Positions 4,456 through 22,400 of a stretch of DNA of 64,000 bases are shown one piece after another. Each line of letters begins with the position of its first letter. Position 1 is the first letter of the stretch. This DNA comes from Scenedesmus sp. PABB004 (taxonomy: Eukaryota). A program made the translations under genes and the position numbers. The notes beneath the pieces were generated by a model that saw nothing but the letters and a program-made list of their open reading frames with translations, was not told where the DNA came from and searched no databases. Location of the stretch: positions 1,240,001-1,304,000 of the forward strand of contig CM026548.1 of assembly GCA_014905635.1 (NCBI GenBank). Reading direction: 5' to 3'.

Positions 4456-7400
4456 ATGCTGCGCTGCACAGCAGGGCTGCGCGCCCCGACTGCGGGCGCC
4501 CAGGAGCAGCGCGTGGCGCGCCCGAGCGCACCGGGCGCGGCGGTCGCCCATGTCGGCTCCGCGCGGCCCGGCGGCCCCGGCGCGCGCGCGGGCGGGCGCG
4601 ATCAGGCCTCCCGGAGGCGCCGCGGCCAGGGCGGCCCGCGCGACGTCTCGGCGCAGGCCTTCTCCGCCATACCACCCGCGAAGGGCCTGTTCGATCCCGC
4701 CAACGACGTCGACTCCTGCGGCGTCGGCTTTGTGGCGCAGCTGAGCAAGGTGAACGCCCAGCCCGCATGCGACCCCGTGCGCCCGCCCCGTGCGCGCGGG
4801 CCTGGCGCGCTCGGCCCGCGCGGACGCTCCCGGCGCGTGTTTGGGGACTTCTGCCGGCTCCACGCAGCGCGGCGCGGCGAGGGGCGGCCCGGGCGCGGCG
4901 CGGCGGCCCGGCGAGCGACCCCGGTGCCGGCGCGGCGCCCACCCCGCAGGGCGCCTCGCGCGCGGTGGTCACGGATGCACTCAAGATGCTGGCGCGCATG
5001 GCGCACCGCGGCGCCTGCGGCTGCGAGGAGAACACGGGTGCGGCGCGGGTGGCAGCGGCAGCGGCGCCGCAGCGCCAACCGCCGCCGCCGGCGCCGCGCG
5101 GCCGCCGCCGGCGCCGCCCCGCCGGCCCGCCGGCCGCCGGCCGCCGGGCGGCCCGGGGCGCGCCTGGACCGCGGCGCCGGGCGCTGCGTGCGCCGCCGGG
5201 CGCGCGGCCCCAAGCCCTAGTCGCCCGCCGGCGCCGCCGGCCGCCGACGCCGCGACGCCGCGCCGCGCCGCCCGCGCGCCCTGCCAGGCGACGGCGCGGG
5301 CATCCTGTGCGCGATGCCCGACTCGTTCCTCAGCTCGGTGCTCATGGACGAGCAGCGCTTCAAGCTGCCCCCGCTCGGCGAGTACGCGGTCGGCCAGGTG
5401 CGCCGCCGCGCCGCTGCGCGCGCTGTGCGGGGCGCGTGGGCCGCGCAAGCGCACAGGCGCGCACACGGAGCGCGCGTGCCCCGCGCGCCCCGCGCACCCC
5501 GCGCGCCCGCACGCCCCGCGCGCCCGTGGGGGCGTTGCTGCCGAGTTAGCAGCCACAGGCGACGAACGCCGCGGCCTCCAGCTCGGCAGCAACGCCCCCA
5601 CGGGCGCGCGGGGCGCGGGCGCCGCGCGCGCGGGGGGCCCGCGCGCGGGCGCGACGCCGCCGCGCCCACGCGGCCGCGCCGCCGCCGGCCGTGCCGCACG
5701 CCGCGCGCTGCACGCCAGGTGTTCCTGCCGCGCGACGAGGCGGCGCGTTCCAACGCCAAGTGCATCATGGAGCGCGTCGCCGCCAAGCTGGGGCACGACT
5801 CCTTCACCTGGCGCACGGTGCGGGGGGTGCAGGGGGCAGAGAGGGAGGGAGGGGGAGTGCAGGCGCAGCGCGGCGCGCGGCGCGCGCGGGGGCGGCAGCG
5901 CCCGCACAATGCCAGCCGCGCGCCGACGCGCCGCGCGACCGCGACCGCCGACGCGGCCGCCGCGGCGCAGGTGCCGACCGACAACAGCAGCCTCGGCAGC
6001 AGCGCCGTCGCGGTGGAGCCTCACGTGGAGCAGTGGTTCCTCGCCGCGCGCGGCGTCAAGGAGCAGCTCGACACCGAGCAGCAGGCGCGCCGCACGACGC
6101 GCGCGCCCGCCCGCGCGCCCGCGCTCCGCCGCCGCGCCAGCTCTCTCACGCCAGACACTGACAGTGTCTGCTAGCACCAAACAAACACAAGAGTAACGCG
6201 CCCCGCCAACGCGCCGCCGCCGCCGCCGCAGCTCTTCATCCTGCGCAAGTTCATCGAGGCCGAGCTGCGCAGCGTGCTGGGCATGGGCGAGGACGACGTC
6301 TACTTCTGTTCACTCTCCTCCGCCACGCTCGTGTACAAGGGCCAGCTCACGCCCGAGCAGGCGCGGCGCGACGCGCGCGCGGCGCGGCGCGGCTGGCGCA
6401 CGGCGCGGGCGCGGCGGGGGAGGACAGCGGTGACGGCGGGCGCCGCGCGGGGGCGAGGCCGGCGGGCGGGCGGGGGGGGAGGGCCGGCGGCGCGCCCCGC
6501 AAACCCCGCCGGCCAACCCCAAAACCCCTGTCACGCAAAACCCGCACCGCCCTAAACCCTGCAGGTCCCGGGGTACTACACCGACCTGCAGCGCCCCGAC
6601 TTTCGTTCCTACATGGCCCTCGTGCACAGCCGCTTCAGCACCAACACCTTCCCCTCCTGGGGCCGCGCGCAGCCGATGCGCCTGCTGGGGCACAACGGCG
6701 AGATCAACACCCTGCGCGGCAACAGGCGCGCGGCGGCAGCGCGGCTGGGAGGCGGCGGCGCGGCGCGCGGCGCGGCGGCAGCGGCCGGCGGGCAGCGCCC
6801 CGGCCCCCCGCGCGTCGCGCCCGCCGCCGCGCCGCCTGACCTCCCCTCGCCTGCCCCTCGCCTGCCCCTCGCCGTTGCCCTTCACCTCGCCCTCGCCCTG
6901 CCCCTCGCCTGGCCAGGAACTGGATGACGGCGCGCGAGGGCGTGATGGCGTGCGAGGCGCTGGGCCTGACCAAGGAGGAGCTGGAGCTGGTGCGGCGCCG
7001 GGGCGTATCACGCCGCGCGCGCGGCCACGCAGCGGGAGCTGAAAGGGGGTTGGGGCAGCGTGCTGCGCCCGGCGCACCGCGCCCGGCCTCTCCCCTCGCC
7101 GCGCCGGCCGTCGCCCTCACGCGGACTCGTCCGCCCGCCGCCCGCCCGCCCGCCCGCCCGCCCGCCGCCCGCCCGCCCGCCCGCCCGCCCGCCCGCCGCC
7201 GCCGCGCCGCCGCGCCGCGCAGCTCACGCCGATCGTGCCGGCGTGGCAGAGCGACAGCGGCGCCTTTGACGGCCTGCTGGAGCTGCTCACGCGGTGCGCC
7301 GCGCGCGCCCGCGCCTGCACGGCGGCCGGCGGCCAGCGACCGCGCGCACTCTCTCTCGCTCTCTCTCACCCTGCGGCCCTCCTGCCTTTAAGCCCTGACC

Positions 7401-19400: not shown

Positions 19401-22400
19401 GTGTGGGTGGGTGGGTGGGTGGGTCTGGGGGTGAGGGGAGCGGACACGCGGGCACCACGCGCCGCCGCGGGGGGCTTGCCGCGCCGCGCTCTGTCACCCC
19501 CCGCTCGCCTCTCAGCCCGCGTGCAAAACCCCGCCTAAACCCCACTGCGCCCGCTGCACTAAACCCTGCACCCTGAACCCTCGACGCCCCCCCCCCGCCA
19601 GGTGCGCGGATTCCTGGAGTATGCGCGCGACCCGCTGGGCTACCGGCCCGTGGAGGAGCGCATGAAGGACTGGGGCGAGGTGCGGCGGCGCGCGGCGGCG
19701 GGGCGCGGCGCGGCGGCGCCCGGCGCGGCGCGGCTGCTGCGGCGGGCACTGCAAGCGGGGGAGGGAGGGAGGGAGGGTGGAGGTGGAGAGGGGAGGGCCC
19801 CGGCCTCCCGGCTGCGGCCGTGCCCTGCCGCCCTGCCCGCCCCTCCGCCCCTCCGCCTCACAAACCCCCTAAGCCCTGCCGCCCTCCCCGCCCGCTAACC
19901 CCTCGCGTCCCCCAGGTGATGATCAACGCCCCGACCGCGCAGCGCGCGGACCAGCTGAGCACGCAGTCGGCGCGCTGCATGGAGTGCGGGACGCCCTTCT
20001 GCCACCAGATCGACTCCGGCTGCCCCCTCGGTGCGCGGGCGGCAGGGGGCCGCGCCGCGCGCGCGCGCGCCGCCGCCGCAGGCGCCCCCGCCGTGGCTGC
20101 CCGCTCCGCGCTGCGCGCCTCTCCCCCTCTCTGCCTCGCTCGCCCGTGCTCCCTGGCTCTGCGTGTGTAGCACGGCGCCGGCGCCGTGCTACACGCGCAG
20201 AGCCAGGGAGCGCGGGCGCGCGAGAGAGGCGGGAGCGCGGGAGGGGGGCGGAGCGGAGCGGGCAGCGTCTGACGCGGCGCGCGCGCCCCCCGCGCCGCTC
20301 GACCCCGCCGCCGCCGCCGCCAAACCCTAAACCCTCCTAAACCCTGCGCCCCGCCCGCCCGCCTGCTAAACCCCGCCCCGCCTGCTAAACCCCGCCCGCC
20401 CGCCGCTAAACCCCGCCCGCCACCAGGCAACAAGATCCCCGAGTTCAACGACCTCGTCCACAAGGGCCGCTGGCGCGAGGCGCTCGACCGCCTGCTGGAG
20501 ACCAACAACTTTCCCGAGTTCACCGGCCGCGTCTGCCCCGCGCCCTGCGAGGTGCGGCGCGCGTGTGCGTGTGTGTGGGGGGGGGACGTGTGCGCGTGTG
20601 GGTGTGTGGGTGTGCCGTGCGTGCGTGTGTGGGTGTGGGCGTGCGCGTGTGTGTGTGGGTGTGTGGGTGCGTGGTGGCTGCTGCGCGCGCGGCCGCCCCG
20701 CCGACGCCTCCTCCCTCGACCCTAAACCCTCCCACCTCCCCCCTCCCCCCCCCCCCCCCACGCAGGGCTCGTGCGTGCTGGGCATCAACCAGGACCCGGT
20801 GGCCATCAAGTCCATGGAGGCGACCATCATCGACAAGGCCTTTGAGGAGGGCTGGATGGCCCCGCGCCCGCCCAAGGCGCGCGCGCGCGCGGCGCGGCGC
20901 TGACGCCCCCGCGCGCCAGCGCCCCGCCGCGCGCCCCTGCAGAACGCGCGCGCCGCAGCCCCCGCGCCCACGCGCCGCGCGCCGGCGCGCCGCTCGGCGC
21001 CGCCGCCGCGCTCGGCCAGCCACCCACCTCGCCCGCCGCCGCCGCCGCCGCCGCCGCCGCTGGCGCCGCAGGTGCGCACGGGGCGGCGCGTGTCGATCAT
21101 CGGCAGCGGGCCCGCGGGCCTCGCGGCGGCGGACCAGCTCAACAAGATGGGCCACGAGGTGCGGCGCGGGGGCGCGGGGGGGGGGGCAGGGTTTAGGGTC
21201 CAGGGGCCAGGGGTCAGGGTTCAGGGTTCAGGGCTGCTCAAAAGGGAGGGACGCGCCAGGGAAGGGTTGAGCGCGGCGGCCGTGCTCAGACCCCTTCCCC
21301 CTCAGCCCACAGCCCACAGCCCTCAGCCCACAGCCCCTGCTTTGCAGCGCCCCTGCTCAACAAAACCGCGCGCTCAACCCCTGCCTAAACCCTGCGCTCA
21401 ACCCCGCCCCGCGCCCCCAGGTGACGGTGTTCGAGCGGGCCGACCGCGTGGGCGGGCTGATGATGTACGGCGTGCCCAACATGAAGACAGACAAGACCGA
21501 CGTGGTGCAGCGCCGCGTCGACCTCATGGCCGCGGAGGGCGTGACCTTTGTCACTGGTGCGGCGGCGGCGCGGCGGCGGCGCGGCGCGCGGCGCGGGGCG
21601 GGGTGGGGGCGGGTGGCGGCTGGGGCACAGACGGGCGCCGCGCGTCGCCGCGGCCGAGCCTCGCGCGCGCCCCCGCCGCCGCCGCCGCCGCCGCCGCCGC
21701 CCGGCGCCAGGCGCGCACGTGGGCGTCAACGTGAGCGCCGAGGCGCTGCGCTCGGGCGGCGACGCGCTGCTGCTCGCGGCGGGCGCGACGCGGCCGCGCG
21801 ACCTGCCGGTCGAGGGGCGCGGCCTGGCGGGCGTTCACTTTGCGATGGACTTCCTGGGCTCCAACACCAAGAGCCTGCTTGACAGCCACCTCAAGGACGG
21901 CGCCTACATCAGCGCGGCGGGCAAGAAGGTGCGGCGCGCGCTGGGCGGCCGCGGCCGCGCGCGCGCGCGGCAGGCGCGAGCGGGAGGGGCGCGCGCGGCG
22001 CGGCGGCGCGCGCGGGGGCGCGCGGTGAGCGGGGCGGCGCCGAGCCCCGAGCCCTGAGAGCCCTGCGAGCCCCGCGCCCGCTCACGCCCCCGCGGCGCCC
22101 GCGGCGGTGGCCTGCAGGTCATCGTCATCGGCGGCGGCGACACGGGCACCGACTGCATCGCCACGAGCCTGCGCCACGGCGCGGCGAGCGTGGTCAACCT
22201 GGAGCTCATGGACCCGCCGCCGCCCACGCGCGCGCCCAACAACCCCTGGCCCCAGGCGCGCGCGGCTGCTGCCTGCCGCGGCGGCGCCGCCGCCTGCGCT
22301 GCGCCGCGCCGCCACGCCGCGCCGCCGCGTGCGCGGTGCCGCGCGCCGCGCCGAGCGCGGCCGGCGTCCAACATAAACCCTAAACCCCTTCTTCCGCCCC

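What the first reader, a model, noticed from the sequence alone, without database searches (positions are those of the whole stretch)
5503..20256. NADH-GOGAT introns host an array of about 13 long hairpins: candidate intronic small-RNA or intron-compaction system
Seen: most of the longer introns of this gene (about 270-600 nt) contain near-perfect 25-45 bp stems. They lie at 5503-5622, 9689-9762, 9768-9859, 9867-9948, about 11035-11103, 11910-11998, 13761-13850, about 15444-15520, 15577-15653, 17365-17465, 18192-18279, 18287-18373 and 20135-20224. Apart from the duplicated pair in intron 31, the arms share no obvious sequence, which argues against one MITE family. Many mismatches are G-U compatible, as expected for selection on RNA structure in the sense strand. 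I saw no comparable stems in introns of the neighbouring genes (not exhaustive). Known: Chlamydomonas miRNAs are often intronic and DCL3-processed. Inference: either a nitrogen-assimilation gene acts as a polycistronic miRNA host, or the hairpins fold long introns down to a standard effective length for splicing.
Basis: partly seen in the sequence, partly recalled or inferred. Interest (0 to 1): 0.88.

Follow-up and report, generated by a model that had tools for sequence, protein, structure and literature searches.

The report
Unrelated perfect hairpins crowd GOGAT introns
Thirteen long, almost perfect but mutually unrelated hairpin sequences sit in the middle of nine introns of one nitrogen-assimilation gene of a very GC-rich green alga and almost nowhere else nearby; they are most likely recently made DNA palindromes that could feed small-RNA pathways, but no function is shown.

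Summary
The + strand carries a 53-exon NADH-GOGAT gene (CDS 4456-23474). Its spliced translation equals, letter for letter, a protein named by NCBI as Scenedesmus sp. PABB004 glutamate synthase. All 13 hairpins fold as described and all lie in introns. Twelve of 13 beat all 200 shuffles (z -7.3 to -14.6); the 13th is a decayed tandem copy. Near-perfect inverted repeats are almost confined to this gene: 9 of 9 top-scoring hits lie in it and 0 in the other 45 kb, against 0.15 per shuffled window. Only one comparable hairpin lies outside, at 39695-39775. The hairpins share no sequence, termini or target-site duplications. They sit centrally in 8 of the 9 longest introns plus one 266-nt intron. 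In this 78% GC DNA everything folds; what stands out is DNA-level symmetry. My best reading (0.45) is locally templated palindromes, made by template switching or fold-back synthesis, that are tolerated mid-intron. A Dicer-substrate role (0.22) is untested: no genome, reads or orthologous introns were available. Intron compaction is poorly supported. The concentration in one gene is unexplained.

The parts
4456..23474 (+). NADH-dependent glutamate synthase (GOGAT) gene, CDS with 53 exons and 52 introns; host of the hairpins
   Evidence: Pfam GATase_2, Glu_syn_central, Glu_synthase, GXGXG, Fer4_20 and Pyr_redox_2 in order. The spliced translation is identical to P0014 over 2259 aa.
5503..5622 (+). 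hairpin 1, intron 3 (321 nt)
   Evidence: MFE -119.2, z -14.6; 34-bp perfect core
9689..9762 (+). hairpin 2, intron 16 (599 nt); first of three adjacent hairpins
   Evidence: MFE -50.7, z -8.0
9768..9859 (+). hairpin 3, intron 16; 5 nt after hairpin 2
   Evidence: MFE -77.1, z -11.3
9867..9948 (+). hairpin 4, intron 16; 7 nt after hairpin 3
   Evidence: MFE -61.1, z -7.6
11035..11103 (+). hairpin 5, intron 20 (266 nt); weaker pairing extends to 11017-11121
   Evidence: MFE -60.5, z -7.3; pair I5
11910..11998 (+). hairpin 6, intron 22 (375 nt)
   Evidence: 32-nt arms, 94% complementary; z -9.8
13761..13850 (+). hairpin 7, intron 27 (400 nt)
   Evidence: MFE -78.3, z -9.5
15444..15520 (+). hairpin 8, intron 31 (578 nt); degraded tandem copy of hairpin 9
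   Evidence: z -2.1. The roughly 133-nt tandem duplication has 86% column identity. Arms match at 28 of 36 positions.
15577..15653 (+). hairpin 9, intron 31; well-kept copy
   Evidence: z -8.5; arms match at 33 of 36 positions
17365..17465 (+). hairpin 10, intron 36 (373 nt)
   Evidence: 56-nt arms, 86% complementary; z -11.6
18192..18279 (+). hairpin 11, intron 38 (404 nt)
   Evidence: z -9.6
18287..18373 (+). hairpin 12, intron 38; 7 nt after hairpin 11
   Evidence: 30-nt arms, 97% complementary; z -11.5
20135..20224 (+). hairpin 13, intron 43 (396 nt); palindrome with a 4-nt centre
   Evidence: 47-nt overlapping arms, 94% complementary; z -14.3
39695..39775 (.). the only comparable hairpin outside the gene, in a roughly 2-kb stretch without coding signal
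   Evidence: MFE -70.2, z -5.7; no coding-like segment between 38364 and 40822

Best explanation
The hairpins are independent DNA palindromes made locally by templated copying, then tolerated as passengers. The copying mechanism would be replication template switching or fold-back (snap-back) synthesis, which writes the reverse complement of one arm next to it. They persist because they arose mid-intron, clear of the G-rich 5' and C-rich 3' splicing zones, and fold back on themselves in the pre-mRNA. What is shown: they are real, near-perfect, mutually unrelated, central, and concentrated in this gene. What is inferred: the copying mechanism, neutrality, and that an existing palindrome raises the chance of further events next to it, which would explain the adjacent hairpins. 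As RNA they would form 24-56 bp duplexes, so they could incidentally be diced if the alga has RNAi. Why this one gene collects them is not explained.
For: 1. The distinguishing property is DNA-level symmetry, not foldability. With relaxed stem criteria, about 250 loci are found spread over the whole window, and every intron folds at about -0.2 to -0.8 kcal/mol per nt. Near-perfect Watson-Crick inverted repeats are rare outside the gene.
2. The sequences are unique. The only significant match for any of the 13 elsewhere in 64 kb is the intron-31 pair. There are no shared termini. Flanking direct repeats are no longer than at random sites.
3. Hairpin 13 is a palindrome with a 4-nt centre.
4. In the only paralogous pair, one copy has decayed (28 of 36 against 33 of 36 paired). 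The right arms are nearly identical and there is no compensatory double change.
5. [quoted passage not shown] In whole-intron folds they are enclosed by 11-81 further pairs. This matches the intron polarity, with GC skew running from +0.23 to -0.5.
6. Template switching is documented to create whole perfect hairpins in one event, and the resulting miRNAs are enriched in introns (PMC10710096, abstract read).
Against: A genome-wide mutational process does not predict 12 of 13 independent events in 27% of the non-coding-like DNA (binomial p 1.6e-6; 6e-5 when counted as 9 of 10 loci). The hairpins are compositionally unlike the surrounding intron: 74% against 81% GC. Their codon-model score has a median of 5.2, against 0.6 for intron controls and 13.8 for CDS, which is not expected if an arm simply copies typical local intron sequence. 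Three unrelated hairpins 5 and 7 nt apart are not an obvious product of template switching. G:T mismatches outnumber A:C by 33 to 15, which could mean selection on sense-strand RNA pairing. No outgroup was available to show an ancestral state without the repeat.
Confidence: 0.45

Rival explanations
1. The hairpins are Dicer-like substrates with a role. Either the GOGAT pre-mRNA is a host for a dozen unrelated hairpin small RNAs (miRNA-like or hairpin siRNAs) expressed with nitrogen assimilation, or cleavage of the intronic stems attenuates the host transcript.
For: Stems of 24-56 bp in 69-120 nt units on the transcribed strand are the size of small-RNA precursors. Rfam miRNA models give structure-only, sub-threshold hits at 4 of the hairpins (13760-13851, 15575-15655, 18280-18379, 20139-20217; 24-47 bits against gathering scores of 60-100). 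There is an excess of sense-strand G:U-compatible mismatches (33 against 15, p 0.013). GC content is below the intron level, which fits constraint or youth. The concentration in one gene is strong. There is precedent: most Chlamydomonas miRNAs come from DCL3 cleavage of introns and UTRs, and mRNAs with such stems in their UTRs or exons rise in dcl3 mutants (PMC4817775, abstract and passages read).
Against: No small-RNA or RNA data could be obtained. Whether this alga has Dicer or Argonaute is unknown here. No hit reaches an Rfam gathering score. The sense fold is more stable than the antisense fold in only 8 of 13 hairpins (Wilcoxon p 0.13). One tandem copy has decayed without compensation. 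The G:T excess could equally come from strand-asymmetric mutation, since T exceeds A on the sense strand.
Confidence: 0.22
2. The hairpins are splicing aids. They fold long introns down to the effective length preferred by an intron-definition spliceosome.
For: Eight of the 9 introns of 321 nt or more carry them. Without them, 7 of 9 host introns fall within the 110-313 nt range of the 43 hairpin-less introns. Their position is central. Yeast zipper and downstream stems are a known precedent (PMC12350175, passages read).
Against: A local hairpin only removes its own length, so it explains tolerance and not benefit. Host introns remain longer after subtraction (median 286 against 190 nt). All 52 introns are predicted to bring their ends within 3-39 nt regardless of hairpins. 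Intron 37 (313 nt) has no hairpin, and neither does the roughly 420-nt first intron of the neighbouring ammonium-transporter gene. Linker lengths exceed the 42-85 nt that define yeast zipper stems.
Confidence: 0.08
3. The hairpins are miniature foldback or MITE-like transposons from many low-copy families that inserted into this gene.
For: Their presence goes with extra intron length. Their composition differs from the surrounding intron. Near-palindromic MITEs are known sources of hairpin RNAs (recalled, not read here).
Against: There are no repeated copies in 64 kb apart from one tandem duplication. There are no shared terminal sequences. There is no target-site duplication beyond chance. 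About 12 different families in 15 kb and almost none in the other 45 kb is implausible for a genome reported at 1.31% repeats (PMC12571836, passages read).
Confidence: 0.07

Closest known systems
Template-switch-generated hairpins and de novo miRNA precursors in primates (Monttinen, Frilander and Loytynoja 2023, PMC10710096; abstract read)
   Same: Perfect stem-loops arise in one step. Their sequences are unique and they are found preferentially in introns, where they are transcribed with the host gene.
   Different: The primate events are scattered genome-wide, whereas here 13 are packed into one gene, some only 5-7 nt apart.
Chlamydomonas reinhardtii DCL3-dependent intronic and UTR miRNA or hairpin-siRNA precursors (Valli et al. 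2016, PMC4817775; abstract and passages read)
   Same: The organism is a green alga. The stem-loops are long, near-perfect and lineage-specific, and lie inside protein-coding transcripts.
   Different: No small RNAs, Dicer dependence or targets are known here. The passages I read do not describe a case of a dozen unrelated precursors in one host gene.
Yeast intron zipper stems and downstream stems (Rangan et al. 2025, PMC12350175; passages read)
   Same: These are intronic helices proposed to shorten effective distances in splicing.
   Different: [quoted passage not shown]
Foldback or MITE-derived hairpin loci (recalled, not read here)
   Same: They are short palindromic DNA that folds into long hairpin RNA.
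   Different: No copies, shared terminal repeats or target-site duplications were found in the window.

Membership tests
miRNA / hairpin-siRNA precursor (Dicer substrate) | Stem-loop with a duplex of about 21 bp or more on the transcribed strand | tested here: met
   Stems of 24-56 bp in sense-strand introns
miRNA / hairpin-siRNA precursor (Dicer substrate) | 20-24 nt small RNAs mapping to the stem as a duplex with 2-nt 3' overhangs | not testable with these tools
   No sequencing run was listed for the locus
miRNA / hairpin-siRNA precursor (Dicer substrate) | Dicer-like and Argonaute genes present in the organism | not testable with these tools
   No whole genome is held. Two literature searches found nothing on this for Scenedesmaceae.
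miRNA / hairpin-siRNA precursor (Dicer substrate) | Match to a described miRNA family | tested here: not met
   Zero matches at gathering score in the whole window. The best sub-threshold hit is 47 bits against a gathering score of 96.
MITE / foldback transposon | Several copies sharing sequence or terminal inverted repeats | tested here: not met
   Within 64 kb only the intron-31 tandem pair is related: 1 of 91 pairs at z 13.6, the rest at z 4.0 or less. Genome-wide copy number could not be tested.
MITE / foldback transposon | Target-site duplication of fixed length | tested here: not met
   Best flanking repeats are 0-7 nt of varying length, like random intron sites
Template-switch / fold-back inverted duplication | Near-perfect inverted repeat with a short spacer and unique sequence | tested here: met
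Template-switch / fold-back inverted duplication | An outgroup or ancestral sequence lacks the repeat, and the new arm is the reverse complement of neighbouring sequence | not testable with these tools
   Of the 79 metagenome loci, 78 have match spans that fit an uninterrupted gene; one (L021) is about 200 nt longer and was not read. None was opened to check for introns. No relatives' genomes are held.
Yeast-type zipper or downstream stems (intron compaction) | [quoted passage not shown] | tested here: not met
Intronic snoRNA or other described ncRNA | Match to an Rfam family | tested here: not met

The most novel reading that the evidence does not exclude
The NADH-GOGAT pre-mRNA of this alga is a dedicated polycistronic precursor. 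A dozen unrelated intronic hairpins are diced into small RNAs whose output tracks nitrogen-assimilation transcription, or their cleavage throttles GOGAT itself. That would be a gene-specific coupling of primary nitrogen metabolism to RNA silencing.
Probability: 0.15. Interest if true: 0.8.

Novelty: new variant of a known kind. Interest (0 to 1): 0.5.

Why it matters
If the hairpins are mutational by-products, this locus is an unusually dense natural record of how perfect palindromes arise and survive in introns of an extremely GC-rich, repeat-poor genome. The open question is then why one 19-kb gene collects them; fork stalling and transcription-replication conflict are speculative candidates. 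If they are processed, it would be the first case I know of in which many unrelated small-RNA precursors sit in one metabolic gene of a green alga. My check of the literature was limited to searches. Either reading can be tested cheaply once the whole assembly and small-RNA data are examined.

Tried and rejected
- Whole genome: none is held, so there is no genome-wide intron scan, no arm copy number and no check for RNAi genes.
- Sequencing runs: none was listed for window 9475-19474.
- Orthologous introns: the one metagenome scan returned 79 loci. Of these, 78 have match spans that fit an uninterrupted gene, and one (L021) is about 200 nt longer. I opened none of them.
- Neighbour gene models: a search with the SNF2-gene ORF found nothing at E 1e-10 or better. 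The ammonium-transporter search gave 77%-identical relatives, not the alga's own protein, so its exon map is approximate.
- My own splice-site and codon gene finder recovered 45 GOGAT exons exactly but ran neighbouring genes together. It also missed a Pfam-supported transporter exon, so I used its introns only for a rough polarity check.
- A fold-based scan that allowed small internal loops did not discriminate: about 250 loci were found across the whole window.
- Hits at 49660-49795, 34790-34842, 14825-14880 and 20880-20940 were set aside as GCC/GGC or (GC)n low complexity.
- snoRNA, tRNA and other known RNA families were rejected.
- Earlier scan notes held nothing on this genome or on look-alike DNA.
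- The arms were not searched against viral contigs.
- Literature searches for intron hairpins with glutamate synthase in green algae found nothing relevant.
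Full report
**Setting.** The window is 73-83% GC throughout. Pfam hits on + strand ORFs run in the order GATase_2, Glu_syn_central, Glu_synthase, GXGXG, Fer4_20, Pyr_redox_2 between about 4.9 and 21.1 kb. 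A homologue search returned P0014, which NCBI names 'Glutamate synthase [NADH], Scenedesmus sp. PABB004'. Exact peptide matches in the window cover all of its 2259 residues. Joining them at GT/GC-AG sites gives a 53-exon, 52-intron CDS (4456-23474) whose translation equals P0014 letter for letter. A comparative paper lists that species at 39.8 Mb, 78.5% GC and 1.31% repeats (PMC12571836, passages read). Intron lengths are 110-599 nt with a median of 198.5.

**The observation.** All 13 claimed stem-loops are present. With 200 dinucleotide shuffles each, 12 of 13 have z between -7.3 and -14.6, and no shuffle folds as well. The hairpin at 15444-15520 has z -2.1. All lie in introns 3, 16 (three), 20, 22, 27, 31 (two), 36, 38 (two) and 43. 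These are 8 of the 9 introns of 321 nt or more, plus the 266-nt intron 20. The 313-nt intron 37 has none.

**Are they special in this DNA?** At about 80% GC, folding itself means little. Whole introns fold at about -0.2 to -0.8 kcal/mol per nt. A fold-based scan that tolerates small internal loops finds about 250 loci spread over the entire window. What is rare is near-perfect Watson-Crick symmetry.
- A gapless inverted-repeat scan (loop up to 40 nt) gives 9 hits at score 18 or more, all in the gene. None lies in the other 44,981 bases, and 20 locally shuffled windows give 0.15.
- In 100-nt windows, 11 of 951 inside the gene have a GC-corrected z below -3, against 0 of 2245 outside.
- A gapped self-reverse-complement scan gives 22 windows inside and 2 outside at score 36 or more, with 0 in shuffles.
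- Of the weaker hits, four are GCC/GGC or (GC)n low complexity. One, at 39695-39775, is a real comparable hairpin (z -5.7).

The neighbours are not short of non-coding DNA. A codon model trained on the gene% of bases inside the gene coding-like and 27% outside. Taking intron bases against non-coding-like bases outside, 12 of 13 independent hairpins in the gene has binomial p 1.6e-6. Counted as 9 of 10 loci, p is 6e-5. Neighbouring genes by Pfam are DUF716, an LHC-like protein, RCC1, NDUFA5, ATP-citrate lyase, a HAD hydrolase, an SNF2-RING helicase, an ammonium transporter and DUF829.

**Anatomy.**
- The hairpins share nothing with each other or with the rest of the window except the intron-31 pair. 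That pair is a roughly 133-nt tandem duplication with 86% column identity.
- Their termini differ. Flanking direct repeats are 0-7 nt of varying length, no longer than at 2000 random intron sites.
- Three in intron 16 are separated by 5 and 7 nt, and two in intron 38 by 7 nt.
- They are 74% GC against 81% for introns and 71.5% for exons. On a codon model they score between intron and CDS controls: medians 5.2, 0.6 and 13.8.
- Among arm mismatches, 33 are G:T and 15 are A:C (p 0.013). In 34 of those 48, the 5' arm carries the A or T (p 0.006).
- The sense fold is more stable than the antisense fold in 8 of 13 hairpins (Wilcoxon p 0.13).
- In the duplicated pair, copy B pairs at 33 of 36 positions and copy A at 28 of 36. 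The 3' arms are almost identical and no compensatory double change is seen.

**Intron architecture.** The 52 introns are polar. GC skew falls from +0.23 in the first tenth to -0.5 near the end. In silico, the G-rich 5' part pairs with the C-rich 3' part, leaving an exterior path of only 3-39 nt in every intron. The perfect hairpins sit at or near the apex, enclosed by 11-81 further pairs. Introns predicted in neighbouring genes show a similar tendency, but those models are unverified.

**Interpretation.** Four features point to a DNA-level, templated origin rather than transposition or slow selection for RNA stability. The symmetry is perfect where imperfect folding is ubiquitous. The sequences are unique. 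There are no transposon hallmarks. One palindrome has a 4-nt centre. Template switching is documented to create whole perfect hairpins in one event, and the miRNAs so generated are enriched in introns (PMC10710096, abstract read). I infer that such events are tolerated only mid-intron. I also infer that a palindrome may promote further events beside it.

This reading does not explain the concentration in one gene, the unlike composition or the G:T excess. Those are the reasons I keep the Dicer-substrate reading at 0.22. It has a green-algal precedent (PMC4817775, abstract and passages read), but no data here. Rfam gives only sub-threshold, structure-only miRNA-model hits, and nothing at gathering score.

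The compaction idea is weak, for four reasons. Local stems only cancel themselves. Host introns stay longer after subtraction (median 286 against 190 nt). The geometry misses the yeast zipper-stem definition. The ammonium-transporter gene has an intron of about 420 nt (about 58029-58455, mapped with 77%-identical relatives) with no strong inverted repeat.

**Limits.** No genome, reads or orthologous introns could be examined. The gene-specific enrichment therefore rests on a single 64-kb window. The origin, any processing and any function are all inferred.

Noticed in passing
window 4456-23474, donors of introns 5, 6, 7, 10, 15, 21, 26, 29, 30, 31, 32, 35, 39, 45, 49, 52: Sixteen of 52 introns in the protein-exact splice model start with GC (mostly GCGCGC/G) instead of GT. 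That is a far higher share of GC-AG introns than usual. It rests on the annotated protein, and no transcript evidence was available.
   Followed up: partly
all 52 GOGAT introns: The introns are strongly polar. They are G-rich at the 5' end (GC skew +0.23) and C-rich at the 3' end (-0.5), so each intron is predicted to fold end to end, with an exterior path of 3-39 nt.
   Followed up: partly
for example 20354-20418, 10211-10264, 17245-17265, 15220-15245: CTAAAC occurs in 17 of 52 introns. Twenty-six of its 28 copies lie 11-100 nt before the 3' splice site, often as tandem copies, so it is a likely branch-site word. Its reverse complement GTTTAG, often as telomere-like GGGTTTAGGG runs, occurs in 10 of 52 introns, always 125 nt or more from the 3' splice site (towards the 5' side in the introns printed). 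Neither occurs in the 6780-nt CDS.
   Followed up: partly
window 55859-58707, - strand: An ammonium transporter (Amt) gene with about 7 exons lies 32 kb from GOGAT, so two nitrogen-assimilation genes are linked. It has no strong hairpins, and its first intron is about 420 nt.
   Followed up: partly
window 39695-39775: A lone 81-nt near-perfect hairpin (z -5.7) lies in a roughly 2-kb stretch without coding signal between two + strand genes. It is of the same kind as the GOGAT ones.
   Followed up: partly
window 60256-60354, - strand: ARAGORN calls a 99-nt tRNA-Cys(GCA). It is long for a tRNA and so may hold an intron or be a false call in this GC-rich DNA.
   Followed up: no
window 18387-18479 and 15714-15765: (CACT)n and (CA)n microsatellites fill the 3' parts of introns 38 and 31, opposite GT-rich 5' parts of the same introns.
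   Followed up: no
L001-L079: Of the 79 best metagenome relatives of the fused NADH-GOGAT, 78 match over about 6 kb for about 2130 residues, which fits genes or transcripts without introns. One (L021) spans about 200 nt more. None was opened.
   Followed up: no
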